Positions 2,839 to 56,522 of a stretch of DNA of 64,000 bases are shown in pieces. The translations under genes and the position numbers were made by a program. The notes beneath the pieces are model-generated. The model made no database searches. It saw only the letters and a program-made list of their open reading frames with translations, and was not told the DNA's origin. Every line of letters begins with the position of its first letter. The stretch's first letter is position 1. The stretch is from a virus, in IMG/VR virus record IMGVR_UViG_3300036826_000261, positions 8,693 through 72,692 of that record. One strand, given 5' to 3'.

Positions 2839-3908
2839 ATCGCCACGTGATCGAGCACACGGCGCCACCGGAGCGTGGTTTTCGACGCAATCCGCTGCCT
2901 GTCTCACAAGGCAACTGTTTTGTGCGCATGCTGACCGCCAAGGTGATTGGCCAGTTGCGCAACATGGCACCGATCTCGGTCGCCACCGGAATGTGGCCGA
3001 GCGACAGAATCACAGCCGAGATTTTGGAACGCGCATCGAGCGCGCCGGCCATGACGGGCGTAGCCGGTTGGGCTGCCGAGCTGACACAGCGGTTGGTCAG
3101 TGACGCGATCTCGATCATGAGTGGCGTATCGGCCGGCGCCGAAGTGCTGCGGCGCTGCTTGATGCTGGCGTTGGATCGCAACGGCTTTTTGGTGCCGGGT
3201 CTGGTGGTTGACGCTACCGGCGCTTCGTTTGTCGCTGAAGGTGATCCGATCCCGGTGCACAATCTTGCGACGACGCCAGGATCGATTCCGTTTACCAAGC
3301 TCGCCAGCATCGCGGTTTTGACAAGAGAAATGGTTGAATCGAGCAACGCCGAAGCGCTGATCGGCAACGCGCTGGGACGTGCAGCCGGTTTGGCGCTCGA
3401 TGCCGTGCTGTTTTCCAGCGCCGCCGCGACATCAGCAGCGCCGGCTGGCTTGCGCAACGGCATTGGTGCTTTGACGGCAAGCGTCAACACCGATCCGTTC
3501 GCAGCGGTGTTCGAGGACATGGCAACGCTGTTCAACGCGGTCGGTCAAGTCGGCGGTGCCGGCCCGTTTGTTCTGGTTGCGGGTCCCGGCCGCGCGATAA
3601 CCTTTTCCATGCGGGTCGGCGGTGGCGCACAGTTATCGGTTTATCCGGTGGCGTCCAGCTTCGTCGGCAATGACCTGATCGCGATTGCACCACAGGCGAT
3701 CGCGGCTGCGCTCGGCACGGAGCCGGTCATCGAGGCAGCAAAGGCCGGTGTTTTGCATATGGACACGGCGCCATCGGCGTCGCCTTCGGCCGGCGCGCGA
3801 AAAGAGATGTATCAAACCGATTCGATTGCAGTGAAAATGCACTGGCCAGTATCTTGGCTTTTGCGCGATGCGCGCGGCGTGGCGTGGCTGACGCCGGCCT
3901 GGAAGTGA
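2835..3908 (+). CDS. HK97-fold major-capsid-like paralog
   Basis: Aligns by eye with the capsid part of 10168-12456 (APAMTGVAGWAAEL vs APAMTTVAGWAQEL; FVAEGDPIPV vs FVGEGMAIPV; YQTDSIAVKM vs FQTDSLALRM). Confidence 0.85.
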   Translation: MNRHVIEHTAPPERGFRRNPLPVSQGNCFVRMLTAKVIGQLRNMAPISVATGMWPSDRITAEILERASSAPAMTGVAGWAAELTQRLVSDAISIMSGVSAGAEVLRRCLMLALDRNGFLVPGLVVDATGASFVAEGDPIPVHNLATTPGSIPFTKLASIAVLTREMVESSNAEALIGNALGRAAGLALDAVLFSSAAATSAAPAGLRNGIGALTASVNTDPFAAVFEDMATLFNAVGQVGGAGPFVLVAGPGRAITFSMRVGGGAQLSVYPVASSFVGNDLIAIAPQAIAAALGTEPVIEAAKAGVLHMDTAPSASPSAGARKEMYQTDSIAVKMHWPVSWLLRDARGVAWLTPAWK

Positions 3909-3913
3909 TCACC

Positions 3914-5107
3914 ATGAAGCATTTCGCGCAGTTCGAGCCGCCATCGCTGCCGCCGGTGGTCGTGGTCGAGCACACGCCGAAAGGCTGGCGCGGTCTGACG
4001 GCGGACGGTCAGGTGCTCAACGTGGAATCCGCCAACGGGCATCCGGTCGAGATTCCATTCGGCGGCAATCTCGCGGTGACACGCGCGGGTCAGATCATCG
4101 GCTATCGCGATATTCCGGAGCAACCGACGCCTGGGCTGATCGACAGCTACACGCGCTGCTATGATTTGGCGCTGCGCGCCGTGAGAGCCGGCAGGCTCGA
4201 CATGGCACTGACCCACGTCGAGACCGCGATATCGTTCGTGCCGACGCTAACCGCGCGCTACAACCGCGGCATGATCCTGCTCGAACTCGGACGCTGGCGC
4301 GAAGGCTTCGACGACTACGCGTACGCGATGGAGTACGACACGTCGCCGTACATGCGTCCGGAGTATCGCACGTGCCTCGAATGGGGATTGAAGCGCTGGC
4401 GCGGCGAGGACCTTCGCGGCAAGCGCATTCTGCTGGTGCACGATCACGGGTTCGGCGATTCGATCATGATGCTGCGCTATGTGCGCGTGCTTCAGGCGAT
4501 GGGCTCCAACGTCACGTTGTGGTTGCCGCCGGAGCTGCAACGGCTGGCGGCGCCGCTGGCGAAGGTCACCGGCGAGATCGTGCACGCGGATTATTTCTGT
4601 TCGCTGCTGTTCCTGCTGCACACGCTGCAGCAGACACCGGCGACGATTCCACTGCAGCCGTATCTGTCGGTCGATACGAAATTGCGCGGCAAGTGGCAGG
4701 ATCGGGTTGGGCACAAAAAGCCGATCGGCGTGGCGTGGACGCCGGGCCGGACGCACGATGGCGACTACCCGCGCGCCGTTCCGCTCGAATTGTTGCGCAA
4801 GGCGTTGCCTGACGCCGCGCTGGTCAGCGTGCAGCAGCAGGGCGCTGAAGAAGCGCAGGCGTTCGGTGTCGAGCACTACACGTTCGAGGATTTCGCCGAC
4901 TGTGCGGGACTGATGGCATGTTGCGATCGGATCATCACCGTAGACACCGCCGCCGTCCACCTCGCGGGCGCTGTCGGTCATTCGCGGATTTCGCTGTTGC
5001 TTGGTCATTGGGCAAGCTGGCGCTGGTTGTCGCCGTTGTACGAGAACGTTTGCATTTATAGGCAGGCGCCGCCGGGTGATTGGAGCGGCGTGCTGAAATT
5101 GCTTTGA
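3914..5107 (+). CDS. TPR-containing glycosyltransferase (GT-B, GT9-like C-terminus)
   Basis: TPR-like YNRGMILLELGRWREGF, then W.GEDL.GKRILL..DHGFGD.IM..RY and IITVDTAAVHLAGA motifs. Confidence 0.8.
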   Translation: MKHFAQFEPPSLPPVVVVEHTPKGWRGLTADGQVLNVESANGHPVEIPFGGNLAVTRAGQIIGYRDIPEQPTPGLIDSYTRCYDLALRAVRAGRLDMALTHVETAISFVPTLTARYNRGMILLELGRWREGFDDYAYAMEYDTSPYMRPEYRTCLEWGLKRWRGEDLRGKRILLVHDHGFGDSIMMLRYVRVLQAMGSNVTLWLPPELQRLAAPLAKVTGEIVHADYFCSLLFLLHTLQQTPATIPLQPYLSVDTKLRGKWQDRVGHKKPIGVAWTPGRTHDGDYPRAVPLELLRKALPDAALVSVQQQGAEEAQAFGVEHYTFEDFADCAGLMACCDRIITVDTAAVHLAGAVGHSRISLLLGHWASWRWLSPLYENVCIYRQAPPGDWSGVLKLL

Positions 5108-29371: not shown

Positions 29372-29562
29372 AAAGCATGAAGGGTGACCCGTTCCCAGAT
29401 CACCCTTCACTTGTGCCGACCATGACGAGACCGGCCCGGCCAGACGGCGCCAAGGCCAAACCCCGACAAACCACGCCTGCCAAGTCTGGCTTTGCTTGGC
29501 CAAATCTTACCGCGCCAGACCTTGTCGCGCCGAACCGCGCCTGTCCTCGCCTGCCATGCCTA
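29372..29562 (-). ncRNA. stand-alone GGY-NN guide-like RNA (mini-array 2) with terminator
   Basis: Minus strand TAGGCAT GGCA, 14 pentamers, GGCA, then a second unit; stem TGAAGGGTGA/TCACCCTTCA followed by TGCTTTT. Confidence 0.8.
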
Positions 29563-35322: not shown

Positions 35323-36303
35323 ATGCATCGCTCGACACCCGCGGACACCTTGCGTCGCGCCTATGACAGCGGCGGCTGTCGTACCTGCATCGACAAGGTC
35401 GATGACAGCCGCATGATGCAGGAGATGGCGGGAAATTTCATGAAAGGGGAGTCCCGCAAGGCGCTGGAGGCGGCGCAGAACTACGGCTTTTCGTCGGTGG
35501 TGATGCCAGCGACCAAGGGCAGCGATGGTCAGATTCAGGAATGCGCCGAGGGGTTTATTTCCTTTCTGGGCGGCAACCGGTCGTTTCCGGTCTGCACGGT
35601 GATGGATGATCGACGGCATCGGCCGATGCAGTTGCCGCCGGGCGCCAGCGCGCAGTACGGACCGAACACCGACTACGGCCGCGCGCTGACCTTGATCAAG
35701 CCGACGCCGCAGGACCAAGGCAGTTCGGGCGGCTCGTCCGGCGGCGGCGGCAGCACACGCGATTCCAGCGGTGGCGGCAGCAGTAGCAGCGGCGAGTACG
35801 GCGCGTTCATGGTGGTGCCGCATCCGCAGGAATATGCCTCAATGCGGCACATTAACAACAAGAAGCAGCCGCGACCGCAAGGCGCGATGGGCACGCAGCA
35901 AGGCGGCGGCGGCGGCGGCCAGTCGCAACAGGGCGATCAGCAGCAACAGTACAATCACGAGAAGGGCGACAGCATCAACACCGAGATGCGTTGCACCAAC
36001 AGCCGCATCGAGTTTCGCAGCGGCGACACCGTGGTCGGCTACTACGACAAGAGCGCGTCGAAATGGGCGTTCATCGGCGAGGTGCATCTCGGCGTCGAGA
36101 GTGCTTCACATCGGGTGTACGGCGTCAACGGCGATGTCGGCATGACCACGGCATCATCCGGTAGCGGCGCGGTGCTGGTCAATGCGACGCAGCCGGGACC
36201 GCCAACCTCATTGGACAATCAACCCTACGTGCTGGCGATGGAGCAGCGGTTCGAGGCGCGCATCGCCGAGCTGGAAGCAAGACTTGCCGCACTGGGAGGC
36301 TGA
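35323..36303 (+). CDS. baseplate spike/assembly protein (Mu gp45-like)
   Basis: VDDS..MQE, E.R...E..QNYGFSSV, FLGGNRS.PV...DDRRHRP. Confidence 0.85.
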   Translation: MHRSTPADTLRRAYDSGGCRTCIDKVDDSRMMQEMAGNFMKGESRKALEAAQNYGFSSVVMPATKGSDGQIQECAEGFISFLGGNRSFPVCTVMDDRRHRPMQLPPGASAQYGPNTDYGRALTLIKPTPQDQGSSGGSSGGGGSTRDSSGGGSSSSGEYGAFMVVPHPQEYASMRHINNKKQPRPQGAMGTQQGGGGGGQSQQGDQQQQYNHEKGDSINTEMRCTNSRIEFRSGDTVVGYYDKSASKWAFIGEVHLGVESASHRVYGVNGDVGMTTASSGSGAVLVNATQPGPPTSLDNQPYVLAMEQRFEARIAELEARLAALGG

Positions 36304-36385: not shown

Positions 36386-37006
36386 ATGCCCAAAGTTCTG
36401 TCTAGCACAAACCAACGCAAGAAGCAGTGTGCGGCTGCATCTCGTCGATATAGAGCCAAGCATAAGCAGAAACACGCTGCGCTGAACCTTGTCAGTTACT
36501 ACCGATTAAAATCTGATCCTGAGTGGTTAGCGAAACGTCGCGCTAAGGCGACGATAAACGCACGAAAATGGCGTGCCGCAAACCCTGAAAAATGTCGAGC
36601 AGCACAGCGTCGATATCGCAATAAAGATAACAACCGAGAAAAAATAAACCAACGAACTAAACGATGGTTAGCAGCCAATCCAGACCAACTTTTGAAACGT
36701 CGTGCGCAGTCCTTAGCTTGGGCGAAAGCCAATCTAGGTTTGCATCGTAAATACAAACTAGGCATCACGCCAGAACAGTTTGGTGCAATGCTAGAATCTC
36801 AACAGCATAGATGTTTGGTTTGTCGGATCGATTTGCGAACACTGCGCGGGAAAAACGTTCATCTTGATCATTGCCATAGCACAAACCGTGTTCGAGGAAT
36901 TTTGTGCCACGGATGCAATACAGCTCTTGGTTTCATGAAAGAGAATGCCGCTAATTTGAGGGCGCTAGCGGACTACATAGAAGGGTTCTCGACATGTCGT
37001 GTCTGA
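36386..37006 (+). CDS. endonuclease VII-domain homing endonuclease
   Basis: Q..RCLVC...HLDHCH.TNRVRGILCHGCN.ALG; basic N-terminus; AT-rich. Confidence 0.9.
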   Translation: MPKVLSSTNQRKKQCAAASRRYRAKHKQKHAALNLVSYYRLKSDPEWLAKRRAKATINARKWRAANPEKCRAAQRRYRNKDNNREKINQRTKRWLAANPDQLLKRRAQSLAWAKANLGLHRKYKLGITPEQFGAMLESQQHRCLVCRIDLRTLRGKNVHLDHCHSTNRVRGILCHGCNTALGFMKENAANLRALADYIEGFSTCRV

Positions 37007-48639: not shown

Positions 48640-48900
48640 ATGAACACACTTGTGGTTTGGTACGTGCTTCTCACCACCGTTCCGGGATCGCTGCTGACCT
48701 ACGCGCGGCCGATCGGCCCGTTCACCTACGAGCAGTGCCATCGCATGGGCGAGGTGGTGCGCGACATGAAGTGGTCGGAGATCGCCTCGATCGAGTGCCG
48801 CAAGGCCGTCCGGTTCGAGGTGTGCGAGCTGCCGGACATGCCGCACACCAACTGCTGCTGCCCGATCTTCGAGCGCGGCAAGGGAGACCGATTGCTATGA
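48640..48900 (+). CDS. small Cys-rich protein
   Basis: GAGGGG RBS; hydrophobic N-terminus. Confidence 0.5.
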   Translation: MNTLVVWYVLLTTVPGSLLTYARPIGPFTYEQCHRMGEVVRDMKWSEIASIECRKAVRFEVCELPDMPHTNCCCPIFERGKGDRLL

Positions 48901-49859
48901 AAATTGTCATATCGTCTGGCCATGGCCTCTATGTCCGTGGCGCCAGCGGGATACTCGACGAAGTCGATGAGGCGCGTCAGGTGGTCGAGGCGGTCGCCAC
49001 GCATCTCGACGCGCTCAACGTGGCCGTGACGGTGTTTCACGACGACGTGTCCCGGTCGCAGGATGAAAATCTGGAGCGCATCACCGATTTCCACAACGCG
49101 CAGGGCGCGCACGATCTCGATATCTCGGTGCACTTCAACTGCTACGAACAGACCAGCGAGCCGCGCGGCGTCGAGGTGCTGTTCGTGTCGGATTCCGATC
49201 TCGCCGACGACTTGTCGAGCGCGATCGCGGCGTGCAGCGGCCTGATCGATCGCGGGCCGAAGCACCGCGACGATCTGTACTTTCTCAACAACACCGAGTC
49301 GCCGGCGATCCTGATCGAGGTGTGCTTCGTCGATAGCAAGGCCGACGCCGAGATTTATCAGGCCAAGTTCGACGCGATCTGTCGCACCATCGCCGACATC
49401 GTGTCCGGCAACCCGGCGAAGCAGCCGCTGCCGCCGCCGCAGGTGCTGCTGCACGACACCGGGCCGTGCTCGTGGTTCGGCGGCCCCGACGACACCGGGG
49501 TCGATGCCGACGAAGGTCTGGCGTTTCTCTACGACTACGACGACGCGCCGCATCTGTTTCTCGACGAACAGCCGGCCGGCACCAGCGGGCTGGCGCGGCG
49601 GCTCGATCCGAACCGGCCGTACATCGCCTGTCGTTGGGACTACGATGTGACGCCGAAATCCATGCTGGCCGATCCGCGTCAGATCGCGATGGTGCGCGCG
49701 GTCAAGAACGGCAAGTGCGCGTTCGCGTGGCCGGCGGACTGGGGTCCGCACCAGGACACGGGACGCGTTGCCGATCTATCACCGCGGCTGCTCGATCTGC
49801 TCGACATCGAGACCGACGACGATGTCGAAGTGATCTATCCAGCGAAGCGCAAAGCGTGA
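48897..49859 (+). CDS. endolysin: N-acetylmuramoyl-L-alanine amidase (Amidase_3) + DPBB-like C-terminus
   Basis: ISSGHG, E, DISVHFN, LYFL.NT..PAILIEVCFVDS; SWFGG..ADWGPH..TGRVADLSP. Confidence 0.9.
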   Translation: MKIVISSGHGLYVRGASGILDEVDEARQVVEAVATHLDALNVAVTVFHDDVSRSQDENLERITDFHNAQGAHDLDISVHFNCYEQTSEPRGVEVLFVSDSDLADDLSSAIAACSGLIDRGPKHRDDLYFLNNTESPAILIEVCFVDSKADAEIYQAKFDAICRTIADIVSGNPAKQPLPPPQVLLHDTGPCSWFGGPDDTGVDADEGLAFLYDYDDAPHLFLDEQPAGTSGLARRLDPNRPYIACRWDYDVTPKSMLADPRQIAMVRAVKNGKCAFAWPADWGPHQDTGRVADLSPRLLDLLDIETDDDVEVIYPAKRKA

Positions 49860-49863
49860 TGCC

Positions 49864-50106
49864 ATGTTGAGTCTCGCTGTCGTGCTGATCAGTCTGCACG
49901 CGCCGAACGGTGACAAGATCGATGTCAATCCGGACAGCATCACCAGCATGCGCGACCGCGCGGCGCAGCACGATGCCGACGAGAGCTTGGTGGCCAAGGG
50001 CATCGAATGCATGATCAATCTGAGCGACGGTAAATATGTTTCGGTGACCGAGCACTGCGACAAGGTGCGTGAACTGATCAAGGCTGCAACGGGAGCGGAC
50101 AAATGA
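49864..50106 (+). CDS. small FlbD-like protein
   Basis: L..PNG..I.VNPD.I..M...C.I.LSDGK...V.E....V..LI. Confidence 0.5.
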   Translation: MLSLAVVLISLHAPNGDKIDVNPDSITSMRDRAAQHDADESLVAKGIECMINLSDGKYVSVTEHCDKVRELIKAATGADK

Positions 50107-50903
50107 GCGAACCGATCAATCCGCTGGTCGTCGATCTGTCGCACTGGGATTTGGCGGACGACTATGACGCGGTGAAAGCTGCCGGCATTGTCGGCGTGAT
50201 TTTCAAGGCGACCGAAGGCCAGAGTTACACCGACGCTACCTATGTGCAGCAGCAGCAGGCGGCGAAGAAAGCCGGCCTGAAATGGGGCGCCTATCACTTC
50301 GCCGACGGCAGCGACGTCGATGGTCAGGTGGACAACTTCATGAACTTCGCCTGCCCCGATCCCGATGAGCTGTTCTGTCTCGACTGGGAGGACAATCCCG
50401 GCGGCAGCAAGATGTCGCTCGATCAGGTCAAGGATTGGATCACCCAAGTCGAAAACCGGCTGGAACGGCCGGGCGAGTGCGTGCTGTACGGCGGCAACAC
50501 CATCAAGGAAGCGCTCGACGAAGCCGATGAGTTTTTATCGCAGCGCCGGCTGTGGCTGTGCCAGTACGGCAGCGATCCGTCGTGGCCGGACACCTGGGAC
50601 ATCTACTGGCTGTGGCAGTACACCGATGGCGAGTACGGCCCGGCGCCGCACGCGATCGACGGCATCGGTCCGTGCGACATCAATTCCTACAGCGGTCCAA
50701 CCGAGCAGTTGATCGCGGAATGGGCGGCAGGCCACGCGCAGCCGGCACCGCCGCCGCGACCGCCGCAGCCGTCGATCGATCAGGTCAACGTCCTGATCGC
50801 GGCGCCGGCCGGCGTGGTGGTCAAGGTGCGGCAATTGCAGCTCGGTCACGGCCTGTCACGCAAGACCTTCAAGGAGCTGCGCCAGCAGGAAGCCAATCCT
50901 TAA
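50103..50903 (+). CDS. GH25 lysozyme (second endolysin)
   Basis: VDLSHW, FKATEG..Y.D, GAYHF, LDWED, LWQYT. Confidence 0.9.
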   Translation: MSEPINPLVVDLSHWDLADDYDAVKAAGIVGVIFKATEGQSYTDATYVQQQQAAKKAGLKWGAYHFADGSDVDGQVDNFMNFACPDPDELFCLDWEDNPGGSKMSLDQVKDWITQVENRLERPGECVLYGGNTIKEALDEADEFLSQRRLWLCQYGSDPSWPDTWDIYWLWQYTDGEYGPAPHAIDGIGPCDINSYSGPTEQLIAEWAAGHAQPAPPPRPPQPSIDQVNVLIAAPAGVVVKVRQLQLGHGLSRKTFKELRQQEANP

Positions 50904-51751: not shown

Positions 51752-52486
51752 ATGGCGACCATGTCGAAAAAGGCAATCATCACCTGGGAGACCGACGACG
51801 GCAGCGGGCCGCCGGTCGGCATCTGGCCGGAGCCGGGCTATCCGGCGCACCCGATTGCGCCGGGCGGACCGCCGCCGGGCGTGTGGCCGGGACCGGGCTA
51901 TCCGGCGCACCCGATCGTGATTCCGCCGGACAAGCCCGGTGAGCCGCCGACCGTGATCTGGCCGGGGCCGGGCTATCCGGCGCATCCGATCGCGCCGGGC
52001 GGACCACCGCCGGGTTATTGGGGTGGCGTGGCGCCGCCGTTGCCGACACATCCGATCGCACCGGGTGGACCGCCGCCGGGCATCTGGCCGGGGCCGGGCG
52101 TGCCGACGCCGCCGATCCATTATCCGCCGATCATCTGGCCGCAGCCGCCGGAGGGCGGACCGCCGATCGCGATCGATCCGGGACATCCCGAACATCCGAT
52201 CGTAATTCCGACACCGCCCGGCACGGTGTGGCCGCCGGATGCATCTATCGAGCATCCGATCGTGCTGCCGCTGCCGCCGGAAATCTGGCCGAAGCCGGGG
52301 GTGCCGACGCATCCGATCGTGATTCCGCCGGAGCAGCCACCGGAGAAGCCGCAACTGATCACGTGGTATGCCGGCTGGTCGGACAAGACCGGTTGGGTCG
52401 TGGTCGGCGTGCCGAACGTGCCGCATCCGACGCCGTCGAAGGCCGGCGGACCGGGCGGACCGGGCGGGCCGAAGAAAGGGCCATGA
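51752..52486 (+). CDS. proline-rich repeat protein
   Basis: Repeats of WPGPGYPAHPI(A/V); AAGGAG RBS. Confidence 0.75.
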   Translation: MATMSKKAIITWETDDGSGPPVGIWPEPGYPAHPIAPGGPPPGVWPGPGYPAHPIVIPPDKPGEPPTVIWPGPGYPAHPIAPGGPPPGYWGGVAPPLPTHPIAPGGPPPGIWPGPGVPTPPIHYPPIIWPQPPEGGPPIAIDPGHPEHPIVIPTPPGTVWPPDASIEHPIVLPLPPEIWPKPGVPTHPIVIPPEQPPEKPQLITWYAGWSDKTGWVVVGVPNVPHPTPSKAGGPGGPGGPKKGP

Positions 52487-52528
52487 CGTCGCCGTAAACA
52501 ACCGTTTCAACCTTCCTCCCTAGACTTG

Positions 52529-52565
52529 AGCCGGGTGGCCCTCCAAGCGCCCGGCTTTCTTTTTT
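52529..52565 (+). terminator. intrinsic terminator ending the late operon
   Basis: AGCCGGG/CCCGGCT stem + TTCTTTTTT. Confidence 0.75.
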
Positions 52566-52670
52566 GCCTGCACGATGTTTTTGCCGGCGAAAAATTTTCT
52601 TGACTTTTCGCCAAACCCGTCGCTCGCTTCCCGGATTCGTAAAATCAAAATGCTAAAGGGAGAGAAGCAA

Positions 52671-53549
52671 ATGGCGAAAAAGGCACCCGTCAGTGAAATC
52701 ATCGAAATCCAAGCTATCGAAATGGCGTCGCTGGATTTCCATGTGGTCGGCACCAGCCCGTTCATCATGCATCGCTTCAGTCAGAAGGCGTGGCAGGAAT
52801 TGCTGCTGCCGTCGATCCGCGAAAACCGCGCTAGTCTCGAACAGAAGCTCAAGCATGATCCGTATGCAGAATTTCGTGGCGCGTTCTATCGCAACAGCAA
52901 TCCGCGCGCCAAGACGGCGTACCATATTCCAAACGGCGCGTTTCACGGCGCGATCGCCAGCGCCGCGCTCGACATGCCGGGTGCCAAGAAGGCGCAGATC
53001 GAGCGGTTGACCAAGATCACCAGCGTCAACATCGAACTGTATGGCATCCCGAAAATCTTTTGCAGCATGGTGCGTAACAGCGACATCTCGCGCACGCCAG
53101 ATGTGCGCACCCGGCCGATCTTCCCGCGCTGGGCGTGCACGGTTTCGGTGCGCTACGCGAAGAACGCGTTGACGGCCAAAGCCGTCGCCAATCTGTTCGG
53201 CGCGGCGGGCGAGATCATCGGCATCGGTGATTGGCGCGGTCAGAAGGGCGGACCGTTCGGCGCGTTCCGCACCAACGTGTCGGTGAACGATAAAGAGTTC
53301 AAGAGCATCTTGAAGGAAGGCCGCGTCGCGCAATTGAAAGCTTACGACAAACCGTTGTTCTACGATGAAGACACGGAAGAAATTTTAACGTGGTTCGCCA
53401 CCGAGGTGCGCCGCCGTGAGTTGGAAGGCAAGATGCGCAGCGATAACGTCAAGGAGTTTCGCGTTATCACCGAGCGCGGCAAGGAGCGCGGCAACGGCGA
53501 GTTGGTGAGCCTTGACGACAAGCGGCGGACCCGTCGAAAGGCCGCGTGA
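52671..53549 (+). CDS. stand-alone Cas7/RAMP-like RNA-binding protein (Vipr-like effector)
   Basis: VVGTSPFIMH first strand, IP..AF..AI..A, R.RP.FP.W, and C-terminal Gly-rich loop GIGDWR..KGGPFGAF typical of RAMP-fold proteins; no other cas genes in the window. Confidence 0.75.
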   Translation: MAKKAPVSEIIEIQAIEMASLDFHVVGTSPFIMHRFSQKAWQELLLPSIRENRASLEQKLKHDPYAEFRGAFYRNSNPRAKTAYHIPNGAFHGAIASAALDMPGAKKAQIERLTKITSVNIELYGIPKIFCSMVRNSDISRTPDVRTRPIFPRWACTVSVRYAKNALTAKAVANLFGAAGEIIGIGDWRGQKGGPFGAFRTNVSVNDKEFKSILKEGRVAQLKAYDKPLFYDEDTEEILTWFATEVRRRELEGKMRSDNVKEFRVITERGKERGNGELVSLDDKRRTRRKAA

Positions 53550-54043
53550 TGGCGAAAGCCACCAAACACGACCGCATCAAAGCGGCGTTGGAAGCGATCA
53601 GGCGCTCGCATCGCGGGCGCTTGACGGCGCGGGCCGTGGTCGAGGCGGCCAAAAATCCTAGGCACCCGTTGCACAGTGAATTTGAATGGAACAACCAGAA
53701 AGCAGCGGATCAGCAACGCTTGGAGCGTGCGCGCGAACTAATCAGATACGTCACGGTCGTGGTCGTTGATGCAACGCGTAAAGTCGAAACACGATTTTAT
53801 GCGCACGATCCGCGAACGCCGCATCGTGAAGGCTATGTCAGCATCTTGGAGATGAACCGCCGCGATGCTGAACAAGATGTGGTCAACGCTATCGCGATCT
53901 GTCAATCGACGATCGATCGCGCGCTCAGCAAAGCGGAATTTCTCAGCGCGAAGCATCGTGGTGTTTCACGATTGTTGAAAAATGCAGTTGCTACCCTTGC
54001 CGCCGCGCATGATCTGCTCGAAGGCTCGGCGGCAGCGGCGTGA
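53549..54043 (+). CDS. accessory protein coupled to the RAMP-like gene
   Basis: LT..AVVEAA..P.HPLH..FEW....AA...RL..AR.LIR motif; start overlaps the RAMP stop. Confidence 0.7.
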   Translation: MAKATKHDRIKAALEAIRRSHRGRLTARAVVEAAKNPRHPLHSEFEWNNQKAADQQRLERARELIRYVTVVVVDATRKVETRFYAHDPRTPHREGYVSILEMNRRDAEQDVVNAIAICQSTIDRALSKAEFLSAKHRGVSRLLKNAVATLAAAHDLLEGSAAAA

Positions 54044-54048
54044 AGTCA

Positions 54049-54269
54049 TAGGCATGGCAGGCTAGGCAAGGTGCGGCCCGGCCGGAGTAGGTTCGGTGCG
54101 GCAAGGCAGGCATGGCCCGGGAGACGCGGTGAAGCGTGTCCGTGATCTGGTAGCGTCGGGTAAGGCGGCGTTGGATGGGGTGAGGCGAGGCAGGCTTGGT
54201 CAGGTCTGACGAGACTGGGCGCGGTAGGTTTTGGCGCGGTACGGCAAGGCGTGATGCGGTAAGGCAGGC
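54049..54269 (+). ncRNA. GGY-NN pentamer array, block 1 (3 units)
   Basis: Starts TAGGCATGGCA; GGCA separators at 54056, 54105, 54189, 54263 (spacings 49/84/74 = 5n+4). Confidence 0.85.
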
Positions 54270-54527
54270 ATGGCCAGAAACACAGCGGATAAGGTTCTCG
54301 AAAACAAGTTGCGGCTGATCGCCAAACGGCGGGGTTTGTTTCTTTCGAAATCCCGTCGTCGCGATCCGTTTGCGCTCGACTTTGGTTATGAGTTGAGAGA
54401 CGCGCAACAGCACGTCATCGAAACAGCGTGCAGTCTTACTCGAATCGAAAACTTGTTAGCTCTCGGTCGGACGGGGCGGAAACGTTTAACAGTCGAAGGA
54501 TGGCGTCACATCATCCTTGGTAAGTAG
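54270..54527 (+). CDS. small basic protein embedded in the array
   Basis: ENKLRLIAKRRGL.L.KSRRRDP.ALDFGY; non-repetitive, lower-GC insert. Confidence 0.65.
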   Translation: MARNTADKVLENKLRLIAKRRGLFLSKSRRRDPFALDFGYELRDAQQHVIETACSLTRIENLLALGRTGRKRLTVEGWRHIILGK

Positions 54528-56488
54528 GCATGGCAGGCGTGGCCGGGCCGGGTTGTCCCCGGTGTGGCAGAGCATGGCAGCGCAGGGTTGACATGGCAGG
54601 GCAGGCAGGGTCCGTCGTGGTCGCGCGGGATTGGGCGGGGCAAGGCACGGCACGATGCTGGTCTGGCGAGGCGTGGCAGGCATGGCTGGATCAGGCGTGA
54701 CGAAGCTTGGTGTAGCTAGGCCGGGTGCAGTGTAGGCATGGCGAGGCAGGCGCGGCGGGACAAGGTCCGATATGGCGTGGCGCGGTCTGGTTCGGTCTGG
54801 CCGGGTTTGGCAGGCAAGGTGCGTCGAGGCCAAACATGGTGTGACAAGGTACGGCGCGGCCTGATCTGGGCTCGACTGGGCAGGCGCGGTGGGTTCTGGC
54901 TCGACATGGTTAGGCGAGGCCCGGTGATGCCCGGCATGTTGAAGTGCGTCCTGGCAGGCGTGGCGGGGGTGCGTGCGAGGCGGGACCGGGCAAGGTCGGG
55001 CACGTTATATGGTCTGGCTGGGCACGGCTTGGCGGGTCACGGCAAGGCACGGCCGGCAAGGTTTGTCCGGAACCGGTTTGGCTTGGCGAGATGCGATTAG
55101 GCGAGGCGAAGCGAGGCCGGCTAAGCGTGACTTGGTCGGGTAGACGTGGCCGGGCACGGTAGCGGCGTGGATCGGCCGGCGACGCTAGGCTTGTCGTCGA
55201 TCGGCATGACATGGCGCGGCACGGCGAGGCGTGGTTCGGCCGGCGCGATTAGGTGTGGTCGGAATCGGCATGGCTCGGTGTCGCGTGGTCTGGCGTGGCT
55301 CGGCTGGGCCGGCTGGCGGGATTTGGCTTGATGCGGTCAGGCAAGGTCCGGCCCGGATCGGCGCGGCATGGCCGGCGTGGTCTGGCTTGAAGTGGTTGGG
55401 ATTAGGCGTGGCGCGGTATGACGCGGTGAGGCAGGCGGGGAGTGGCTAGACGTGGCTGCGCGCAACAAGGTCGGTCAAGTCCTGGTTTAGGCGTGGTGTG
55501 ACGCTGTGAGGCAGGCAAGGCCCGGACGGGCAAGACCGGATTAGGCATGGCGATGCTGGGCCGGCGGGGCACGGTGGAGGCCCGGACGGGCACGGCCGGG
55601 CAAGGCGTGGCAATGCAAGGCAGGCAAGACTTGGCAGGGCGCGGCCCGGCGAGAAATGGTTTGGCGCGGCGCGGCAGGCATGGCAGGGCGATACATGGTC
55701 AGGCGAAGCACGGCACAGCAGGGCAGGCGGGACTGGGTGTTCTGGGCACGGCTGGGCACGGCCGAAGCATGGCCGGCGAGGCTTGTCCTGGCACGGCGGG
55801 GCTGAGGCGTGGCAGCGTTTAGGCGCGGCCGGCGAGGCTTGTCCTGATTCGGCGGGGCTCGGCTTAGGCGCGGCCGGGTCGGTCACGGCAAGGCAGGCAC
55901 GGCTAGGCGTGGCAGGGAGCGGCAACGCCGGGTCGGGCGTGGCTGGGCTAGGCGACGGCGAGGCGAGGCGTGGTGCGGCAGGCGCGGCATGACAAGGCGC
56001 TGTGAGACCCGGCTTGGCAGGGTGCGGTACGGCATGGCTCGGCAGCGCTAGGCTTGGCAGGCACAGGTGATGCGGCGCGCGACAAGGCGGGACAGGGCGA
56101 GGCCGGCGCGGCATGAAAAGGCGCGGCGCGTTCGGGTGCAGCGCGGCGGGGTTGCGGCAAGGCACGGCTCGGCAGGACCGGCGGGGCTGGGCGTGTCTGG
56201 GCACGGCTCGGCGCGGCACGGCACGGTCCGGCAACGCCGGCAGCGCTGGGCGAGACATGGCATGGCTTGGCGGGGCTGGACACGGTGAGGCGAGGCAGGC
56301 GCGATCTGGCGTGGTTTGGCGTGGCGGGGCGAGGTACGAGCTGGGCGAGGCGAGGCAGGCGTGGTCGGGCGCAACGCGATGTGGTGTGACTGGTCGCGGC
56401 TCGCTGCGGTACGGCCCGGCAGGCGGGACTGGGCGTTGCTGGATCAGGTTCGGCCCGGCATGGCTAGGCGTGGCAGGCGGCGCAGGCG
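54525..56488 (+). ncRNA. GGY-NN pentamer array, block 2 (about 30 units)
   Basis: Continuous 5-nt periodicity of GG(C/T)NN with GGCA/GGCC tetramer separators about every 45-85 nt; only low-complexity spurious ORFs. Confidence 0.9.
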
Positions 56489-56522
56489 CTGATTATCCGT
56501 TAGAAAAAAGGAATCCCAACTG

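What the first reader, a model, noticed from the sequence alone, without database searches (positions are those of the whole stretch)
52863..54104. First guide of the main array near-matches the effector gene itself
Unit 54060-54104 has NN = TA AA GC CC CG TA TC GC AA; its gapped reverse complement is TT GC GA TA CG GG GC TT TA (F/L-A-E-Y-R-G-A-F-Y). The RAMP-like gene reads TAT GCA GAA TTT CGT GGC GCG TTC TAT (YAEFRGAFY, 52863-52889): 16 of 18 read bases match, in codon phase. Inference: the guide targets the homologous effector of competing phages (system-versus-system conflict), or provides weak autoregulation.
Basis: partly seen in the sequence, partly recalled or inferred. Interest (0 to 1): 0.85.

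Follow-up and report, generated by a model that had tools for sequence, protein, structure and literature searches.

The report
Phage guide RNA aimed at rivals' vipr
The first guide RNA of this soil phage's VIPR system (a CRISPR-related DNA silencer described in 2026) spells a conserved stretch of the silencer gene itself exactly as one related phage writes it, while the phage's own copy differs at two letters, a kind of phage-against-phage targeting that is already in print.

Summary
Observation confirmed. Unit 54060-54104 is one 9-unit GGY/NN guide, bounded on both sides by a 4-nt GGCA register break. Read by the published VIPR rule (NN pairs, one base skipped), it matches 52863-52889 at 16 of 18 positions with the skips on codon wobble bases. 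This is the best hit in the 72.7-kb genome (next best 13). It was reached by 5 of 2000 and 1 of 2000 shuffled guides. Of 11 cleanly delimited guides in the array, it is the only one with a self-hit above its null.

The locus is a VIPR system:
- The 292-aa gene is a Vipr RAMP protein. Its family profile hits PDB "SUSP1 Vipr protein" at E 2e-7 across the RPIF...GDWR residues.
- A conserved accessory gene follows it.
- A tail-less array of the staggered kind follows that.

An IMG/VR phage has a Vipr 61% identical to this one that reads DPFAEYRGAFY, an 18/18 match at the homologous codons. A second allele scores 17/18.

The rival-targeting reading is therefore supported. Weak autoregulation is untested and not excluded. 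Guides that target other VIPR systems are already reported in the April and October 2026 preprints. This scan has also found many "rival allele perfect, own copy diverged" guides on other DNA, including one orphan anti-vipr guide. The finding is a new member of a known kind.

The parts
52671..53549 (+). vipr gene (292 aa), the RAMP/Cas7-like effector of a VIPR system
   Evidence: No Pfam hit; phrog_4652, E 5e-19. A profile of 56 homologs hits PDB 36pp_D 'SUSP1 Vipr protein' at E 2.1e-7 over RPIF...GIGDWR. AF2 model pLDDT 79.8; Foldseek top hits are Csm3/Cas7 RAMPs, E 2e-5.
52863..52889 (+). Near-target of guide 1 in the phage's own vipr: codons 65-73 (YAEFRGAFY), 16/18, mismatches at 52864 and 52873
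   Evidence: It lies in the conserved motif KHDP-x-A-E-[FY]-R-G-A-x-Y and in a predicted helix, residues 64-70.
53549..54043 (+). vap-like accessory gene (164 aa)
   Evidence: phrog_15946, E 2.5e-14, no Pfam hit. A homolog is found in 71 of 81 loci, directly downstream of vipr in most.
54044..54059 (+). Leader (AGTCA-TAGGCATGG) ending in the first 4-nt GGCA register break (54056-54059)
   Evidence: The same TAGGCAYGG leader sits directly after a stop codon in L080 and occurs in 17 of 65 dereplicated loci.
54060..54104 (+). Guide 1: 9 GGY/NN units; unit 6 has the deviant scaffold GAG
   Evidence: GAG is 1 of 142 scaffold triplets in the clean segments.
54105..54108 (+). GGCA register break that closes guide 1
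   Evidence: 23 GGCAGGC sites between 54056 and 56472.
54040..56488 (+). Main vrRNA array: 5-nt GGYNN periodicity, GC skew about +0.3, no tails or ribozymes between guides
   Evidence: No Rfam family inside the array.

Best explanation
Guide 1 is a vrRNA of this phage's own VIPR system and is directed at the vipr gene of related, competing phages.

Shown:
- The locus has the three VIPR parts: Vipr, an accessory gene and a GGY/NN array.
- Read by the published 1-nt-skip rule, the guide is complementary to the sense strand of a codon-constrained motif of vipr. The match is perfect in one relative's allele ([F]AEYRGAFY), 17/18 in another, and 16/18 in the phage's own gene.

Inferred from the published mechanism (Vipr filament on the vrRNA, gapped R-loop triplex, transcriptional silencing):
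- In a co-infected or lysogenic cell the Vipr-guide 1 complex would bind the rival's vipr about 190 nt into the gene. That would block transcription of the rival's vipr, vap and array, and so disarm its VIPR.
- The phage's own gene escapes, or mostly escapes, through two second-codon-position changes (Tyr65 for Phe/Leu, Phe68 for Tyr). Wobble changes could not provide such an escape.
For: 1. VIPR membership.
- The profile hits the solved SUSP1 Vipr across R138 and D177-W178-R179, the residues that preprint 720927 names as GGY contacts. These positions are invariant in the family: R148, D187, W188, R189.
- The fold is Cas7/Csm3-like.
- A vap homolog is found in 71 of 81 loci, and same-strand GGYNN arrays in 72 of 81.

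2. Non-chance self-hit. The self-hit is 16/18, reached by 5 of 2000 and 1 of 2000 shuffled guides. It is the only one of 11 clean guides above its null.

3. A perfect rival allele exists.
- Exact pattern scan of IMG/VR: 3 loci. One lies in a Vipr homolog at the homologous, in-phase codons.
- Relaxed pattern (the 2 mismatch positions left free): 14 loci, 3 in vipr homologs (18/18 once; 17/18 twice, the same sequence).
- Scores at the homologous site in the 80 fetched loci: 18 in 1, 17 in 2, 16 in 2, 15 in 3, and 14 or less in 72.

4. The complementarity starts and stops at the GGCA delimiters.

5. Anti-vipr guides recur in this clade.
- 2685 array windows were scanned against 81 vipr genes. Hits of 16/18 or more: 66 observed against 12 with shuffled guides. 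62 of the 66 were in wobble-skip phase, against 5 of 12.
- Independent cases come from L009, L080, L016/L017 and L013.
- The L009 guide matches this phage's own vipr at 20/22 and L008's at 21/22. Vipr genes of this group, this one included, are thus near-matched by other phages' guides.

6. Phylogeny. P0001 and P0002 (Phe68) are nested in a 6-row clade (support 95) whose other 4 members have Tyr68, as expected if the own mismatch is derived (quick tree, first 60 of 120 proteins, midpoint root).

7. Precedent. [quoted passage not shown] Solo vrRNAs that target relatives' vipr (759431, section 8, read).
Against: - Only one perfect target was found. The exact pattern gave 9 loci in metagenome contigs and 6 in genome contigs, and none is in a vipr homolog.
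- The target phage shares little with this one beyond the VIPR module (tblastx covers 30% of it at 43% aa identity; GC 58% against 62%). A shared host or co-occurrence is not shown.
- Its array has no window at 16/18 or more against this genome.
- The own gene at 89% passes the 80% criterion the preprints use for natural targets. The authors reported no self-hit at that level in their sets, so self-silencing is not excluded.
- I found no mismatch-tolerance data in the main texts.
- Unit 6 has a GAG scaffold with a purine at the Y position, which the SUSP1 structure says is sterically excluded. The guide could be impaired.
- Expression of the array is not shown.
- Perfect targets for the analogous L080 and L009 guides were not found in IMG/VR.
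Confidence: 0.68

Rival explanations
1. Negative autoregulation, alone or in addition to rival targeting. The 16/18 match lets the Vipr-guide 1 complex bind its own vipr weakly. That would throttle transcription of vipr, vap and the array downstream.
For: - 89% NN identity is above the 80% bioinformatic cut-off of the preprints.
- The array starts directly after the vap stop codon, with no promoter-like site between 52300 and 54350, so guide and gene may share one transcript.
- L080, only 43% identical in Vipr, also has as its first guide after the same leader a guide that matches its own vipr at 20/24.
- Both self-hits of 16/18 or more in the family are leader-adjacent.
Against: - A perfect non-self allele exists, and the own allele is the worse match.
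- 63 of 65 dereplicated loci have no guide window at 16/18 or more on their own vipr, and 8 of 10 leader-adjacent first guides sit at background (11-14/18). Any such role is therefore not conserved.
- A near-self match is an expected by-product of targeting a homolog.
- 'autoregul' does not occur in preprint 759431.
Confidence: 0.15
2. Relic or impaired guide. It was once aimed at a vipr allele, but it is now decaying or has no current target in the phage's environment.
For: - The unit 6 scaffold GAG is the only one of 142.
- There is one perfect target in three collections.
- It is the shortest guide class, at 9 units.
Against: - The NN pairs still match a natural allele at 18/18.
- The guide is unchanged in contigs of 3 other soil runs, including a strain whose vipr differs at 21 positions.
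- Degenerate scaffold units are common in this array: 48 of 142 are not GGY. The preprint also calls them frequent.
Confidence: 0.12
3. Chance resemblance between an unrelated guide and the gene.
For: With some 20-40 guides in the array, a per-guide P of 0.0005-0.0025 gives roughly 1-10% family-wise.
Against: - The hit falls in the effector gene (1.2% of the genome), in wobble phase, and spans exactly the delimited unit.
- One of only 3 exact IMG/VR hits lies at the homologous site of a homolog.
- The family-wide excess is 66 hits against 12.
Confidence: 0.03

Closest known systems
VIPR systems, experimental type II exemplars (Escherichia phage SUSP1, Pseudomonas fulva prophage); bioRxiv 10.64898/2026.04.26.720920 and .720927
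   Same: - A lone small RAMP protein (Vipr) with conserved thumb Arg and G-loop D-W-R.
- An adjacent accessory gene.
- GGY/NN pentamer guides on the same strand.
- Targets read as NN with one skipped base that falls on codon wobble positions.
- The system is phage-borne.
   Different: - Vipr here is 292 aa, against a 202-residue solved chain.
- Guides follow each other directly, separated by a 4-nt GGCA register break, with no 3' pseudoknot tail. This resembles the 'staggered arrays' of fig. S18, of which I saw only the legend.
- The array is about 2.4 kb.
- Which of the seven types and which of vap1-6 apply could not be decided, because the supplements are closed.
vipr-targeting solo vrRNAs of VIPR-null SUSP1-family phages (bioRxiv 10.64898/2026.10.15.759431, section 8)
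   Same: - A phage-borne guide whose gapped code matches the vipr coding sequence of relatives.
- It is read as an attack on a competitor's VIPR.
- Self-match is lower than non-self match.
   Different: - There the carriers have lost vipr-vap1 and must borrow a rival's Vipr. Here the carrier has its own Vipr and the guide is the first unit of its main array.
- The carrier therefore has to spare its own gene, which differs at only 2 of 18 read positions.
P. fulva-clade vrRNAs that 'target other VIPR systems' (720920, Results; fig. S15 and data S3 not seen)
   Same: A VIPR-positive element carries guides against other VIPR loci.
   Different: Details are unavailable to me. The authors state that no self-hit reached 80% NN match on the source contigs of the P. 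fulva clade and types III and V. Here the self-hit is 89%.
Partial-match guide autoregulation in CRISPR-Cas9 (long-form tracrRNA repressing the cas promoter; recalled, not looked up)
   Same: It would be the analogue of the autoregulation rival: an imperfect guide-target match inside the system's own operon.
   Different: Nothing here shows repression of the phage's own operon.

Membership tests
VIPR system | Vipr protein: minimal RAMP (RRM core, G-loop, thumb) homologous to SUSP1 Vipr | tested here: met
   hmmsearch of the 56-sequence profile against PDB: 36pp_D 'SUSP1 Vipr protein', E 2.1e-7, aligning RPIF...GVGDWR. Foldseek: Csm3/Cas7 RAMPs, E 2e-5, prob 1.0. R148, D187, W188 and R189 are invariant.
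VIPR system | vrRNAs made of alternating GGY/NN pentamers next to vipr | tested here: met
   GG autocorrelation peaks at lags 5, 10, 15 and further multiples (2.64, 2.34, 2.16) in 54040-56520 and not in a control region. 94 of 142 scaffold triplets are GGC or GGT. Same-strand arrays are present in 72 of 81 related loci.
VIPR system | Targets obey the 1-nt skip rule, with skips on wobble positions | tested here: met
   18/18 to a natural allele and 16/18 to self, both in phase 0. Family-wide, 62 of 66 hits are in wobble-skip phase against 5 of 12 in the null. This evidence is in silico only.
VIPR system | Adjacent vap accessory gene (vap1-6) | tested here: inconclusive
   A conserved 164-aa gene follows vipr, with a homolog in 71 of 81 loci, but it has no Pfam hit.
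VIPR system | vrRNA expressed and bound by Vipr | not testable with these tools
   No RNA run is listed for this DNA.
Type II VIPR (SUSP1 clade) | Each vrRNA ends in a conserved 3' tail or pseudoknot | tested here: not met
   Guides abut at GGCA breaks. No conserved tail was seen. The fold of 54044-54125 has z = -0.10. No Rfam family lies in the array.
Anti-VIPR (vipr-targeting) vrRNA | The guide's best match lies in the vipr CDS of another element and scores above its self-match | tested here: met
   18/18 on L008 and 17/18 on L014/L015, against 16/18 on self.

The most novel reading that the evidence does not exclude
Guide 1 does two jobs. It fully silences rival vipr-vap-array operons, and through its 16/18 self-match it weakly feeds back on its own operon. 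A leader-adjacent anti-vipr first guide would then be a recurrent design: it is seen independently here and in L080. In any case, the pair 'perfect on the rival, two conservative F/Y swaps at home' gives a natural calibration of how few mismatches VIPR needs to tell self from non-self.
Probability: 0.12. Interest if true: 0.6.

Novelty: new member of a known kind. Interest (0 to 1): 0.4.

Why it matters
This is a clean, checkable natural example of one VIPR system aimed at another, in an uncultured soil-phage clade far from the E. coli and Pseudomonas exemplars. The carrier keeps its own Vipr, so its own gene must be spared. It differs from the perfect target at only 2 of 18 read positions, both conservative Phe/Tyr second-position swaps. 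That makes a ready-made test of VIPR mismatch tolerance. It is also an exception to the published statement that no guide matches its own contig at 80% or more. The targeted motif and the two other vipr sites hit by relatives' guides are among the most conserved stretches of the protein. This fits the published idea that skipping wobble bases closes the synonymous escape route.

Tried and rejected
- RNA evidence: the look-up of sequencing runs listed no RNA holder. The six holders are soil DNA runs, three of them possible sources of this DNA.
- Read laying on four DNA runs: guide 1 and the target site are unchanged wherever they are covered.
  - X4 record 8 has 21 differences across 52600-53749, none in 52863-52889.
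  - X4 record 11, X5 record 16 and X6 record 26 cover guide 1 unchanged.
  - With about 0.5 differences expected in 27 nt, this is weak support.
- Reciprocal attack: the perfect-target phage (G001) has no array window at 16/18 or more on this genome.
- Perfect IMG/VR targets for the analogous anti-vipr guides of L080 and L009: none.
- 'The first guide is always anti-vipr': rejected. Only 2 of 10 loci with leader-adjacent windows show it.
- Promoter scan of 52300-54350: 0 sites.
- Rfam: no hammerhead or other family in the array. The only hits are sub-threshold sRNA-like matches over the terminator-like hairpin at 52496-52571.
- RNA fold of leader plus guide 1: not more stable than shuffles.
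- Exact-pattern hits in metagenome contigs (9) and genome contigs (6) are all outside vipr homologs. I take them as chance.
- My first strict guide caller missed guide 1 because of its GAG unit. I replaced it with delimiter-based and sliding-window calls.
- The period-5 power scan printed nothing at my threshold, so I used the autocorrelation instead.
- The careful tree did not finish. The quick IQ-TREE tree of the first 60 of 120 proteins is what I cite.
- Supplements of the three preprints are closed. Data S3, fig. S15 and Supplementary Tables 13-18 may already list comparable array-borne anti-vipr guides or self-match scores.

Full report
WHAT IS THERE. The window is bases 8693-72692 of a 72,692-base IMG/VR virus record rated 98% complete. 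Lysis genes lie upstream: an amidase at 48657-49859 and a GH25 muramidase at 50103-50903. Three features follow on the + strand. The first is a 292-aa gene at 52671-53549, with no Pfam hit and a match to phrog_4652. The second is a 164-aa gene at 53549-54043 (phrog_15946). The third is a 2.4-kb G-skewed stretch at 54040-56490 whose GG dinucleotides recur every 5 nt, with autocorrelation 2.64, 2.34 and 2.16 at lags 5, 10 and 15. I then read the three 2026 preprints: Results, Discussion and methods sections 20, 26 and 27 of 10.64898/2026.04.26.720920; the first of two parts of Results of .720927 (its first three subsections); and sections 8, 17 and 25 plus term searches of 10.64898/2026.10.15.759431. 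According to them, Vipr is a minimal RAMP protein that polymerises on vrRNAs made of GGY/NN pentamers. Only the NN pairs read the DNA target, and one target base is skipped per unit, usually the codon wobble base. Binding silences transcription.

MEMBERSHIP. A profile of this protein and 55 homologs hits the solved 'SUSP1 Vipr protein' (PDB 36pp_D) at E 2.1e-7. The alignment runs over RPIF...GIGDWR. This includes the thumb Arg and the G-loop Asp-Trp-Arg that the cryo-EM preprint names as the GGY contacts, and these positions are invariant in the family. The AlphaFold model (pLDDT 79.8) finds Csm3/Cas7 RAMPs first (E 2e-5). I compared 81 loci: this one plus 80 IMG/VR relatives kept from 200 found. 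Of these, 71 have a homolog of the accessory gene and 72 carry same-strand GGYNN windows, mostly just downstream. The array has 23 GGCAGGC sites, that is, a 4-nt GGCA unit that shifts the register by one. It has no tail, no ribozyme and no Rfam family between guides. This is unlike type II and resembles the 'staggered arrays' whose legend I read.

THE OBSERVATION. Unit 54060-54104 is the segment between the first two GGCA breaks and holds nine units. Read by the published rule, it specifies TT.GC.GA.TA.CG.GG.GC.TT.TA. Its best hit on both strands of the whole genome is 52863-52889 at 16/18, with the next best at 13. The hit covers codons 65-73 (YAEFRGAFY) of vipr itself, and every skip falls on a wobble base. 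Shuffled guides reached 16 in 5 of 2000 and 1 of 2000 trials. Of 162 in-register windows of the array, only one other unrelated window reaches 16. Of 11 cleanly delimited guides, this is the only one above its null; the rest score 57-80% with P = 0.07-0.96. Extending the guide past either delimiter adds only 1 of 2 matches.

THE PREDICTED ALLELE EXISTS. An exact scan of IMG/VR for the gapped pattern gave 3 loci. Two are one unrelated sequence. The third lies in a 31-kb phage contig, inside a Vipr homolog of 61% identity, at the homologous in-phase codons: DPFAEYRGAFYRN, an 18/18 match. Freeing the two mismatch positions gave 14 loci, 3 of them in vipr homologs: the perfect one, and a 17/18 allele (LAEFRGALY) present on two contigs. 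In the 80 fetched loci the homologous site scores 18 in 1, 17 in 2, 16 in 2, 15 in 3, and 14 or less in 72. Among 120 listed protein homologs (of 436 at E <= 1e-5), the motif is KHDP-x-A-E-[FY]-R-G-A-x-Y. FAEYRGAFY occurs once, LAEYRGAFY once, and the own YAEFRGAFY twice. The same pattern gave 9 loci in the metagenome collection and 6 in the genome collection, none in a vipr homolog. Exactly one perfect target is therefore known.

CONTEXT IN THE FAMILY. I scanned 2685 array windows from the 81 loci against the 81 vipr genes. Hits of 16/18 or more numbered 66, against 12 for shuffled guides. Wobble-skip phase held for 62 of 66 observed hits and 5 of 12 null hits. Independent anti-vipr guides come from L009, L080, L016/L017 and L013. 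The L009 guide pairs with the antisense strand of the MVRNSD..RTPDV motif and scores 21/22 on L008's gene. It scores 20/22 on this phage's own gene and poorly on L009's own. L009's phage (G002) has three guide clusters at 16/18 on this genome, against about 1 window expected. No perfect IMG/VR target was found for the L009 or L080 guides. In the quick tree of the first 60 proteins, P0001 and P0002 (Phe68) sit inside a clade (support 95) whose other four members have Tyr68. This suggests, but does not prove (midpoint root), that the own mismatch is derived.

SELF OR RIVAL. The own-gene match (89%) is above the 80% cut-off the preprints use. Their authors report no self-hit at that level in the P. 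fulva clade or in types III and V, and I found no mismatch-tolerance data in the main texts. The array begins directly after the vap stop codon, and no promoter-like site was found in 52300-54350. A block at codon 65 could therefore lower the whole operon. L080 shows the same layout: the same TAGGCAYGG leader directly after a stop codon, then a first guide that scores 20/24 on its own vipr and 21/24 on L041. However, only 2 of 65 dereplicated loci have any window at 16/18 or more on their own vipr, and 8 of 10 leader-adjacent first guides are at background. I therefore rate autoregulation as possible but secondary. Unit 6 of the guide has the scaffold GAG, the only one among 142 units. Its purine sits where the SUSP1 structure excludes purines. 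By coincidence or not, this is the unit that mismatches the own gene. The guide may be weakened.

POPULATION DATA. No RNA run is listed. Contigs of four soil DNA runs show guide 1 and the target site unchanged wherever covered, including in a strain whose vipr differs at 21 positions. This is weak support, since only about 0.5 differences are expected in 27 nt.

COMPARISON AND NOVELTY. Guides against other VIPR systems are in print: one sentence for the P. fulva clade, and a section on solo vrRNAs of VIPR-null SUSP1-family phages that target relatives' vipr, with self-match below non-self match. Earlier follow-ups of this scan report the same 'rival allele perfect, own copy diverged' pattern on many other genomes, two solo guides of this same phage, and one orphan anti-vipr guide. 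What is particular here has three parts. The carrier is VIPR-positive. The guide is the first unit of a staggered array in a distant soil clade. The own gene is spared, if it is spared, by only two conservative second-position changes.

Noticed in passing
L001 (Mycobacterium phage Donkeykong NC_051648.1) 2990-3340 and 3330-4076: The CDS annotated 'gp48 hypothetical protein' is a GGCNN pentamer array. It was hit at 68% by this window's array, as were the corresponding stretches of 18 other Mycobacterium phage records. The next gene, gp49 (hypothetical), is a Vipr homolog (hhalign prob 98.4%, E 8.6e-15, with GVGDWRP). These mycobacteriophages therefore seem to carry an unannotated VIPR system with the array upstream of vipr. 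gp47 is not related.
   Followed up: partly
window 29477-29556 (- strand) and 29679: The minus-strand solo guide near the tape-measure gene gives the only other self-hit of 16/18 or more in this genome.
   Followed up: partly
window 54270-54527: An 85-aa ORF sits inside the array. Its ATG lies in the recurring GGCAGGCATGGCC motif. It has no Pfam or PHROG hit, and the 5-nt periodicity is lost across it.
   Followed up: no
window 52496-52571: A G+C-rich hairpin followed by a T run lies just upstream of vipr. It gives sub-threshold Rfam hits to suhB/mmgR and SorY sRNAs (32.8 bits against a gathering score of 41). It is probably the terminator of the preceding lysis operon, which would make the VIPR locus its own transcription unit.
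   Followed up: no
window 54110-56031: Contigs of two soil runs (X5, X6) join 54110 to 56031, skipping 1920 bases of the array, but with only 21 letters on the shorter side. This may be an array-length variant or a mis-join in repeats.
   Followed up: no
G002 (L104-L106) 35456-35510, 36454-36503, 36562-36611: Three guide clusters of a related phage's array match this genome at 16/18: own vipr (genome 61762), genome 55834 and genome 46683. About 1 window would be expected from shuffles.
   Followed up: partly
L080 7311-7390: A second, distantly related VIPR locus has the same leader directly after a stop codon, and a first guide that near-matches its own vipr (20/24) at a different site, codons about 97-110.
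   Followed up: partly
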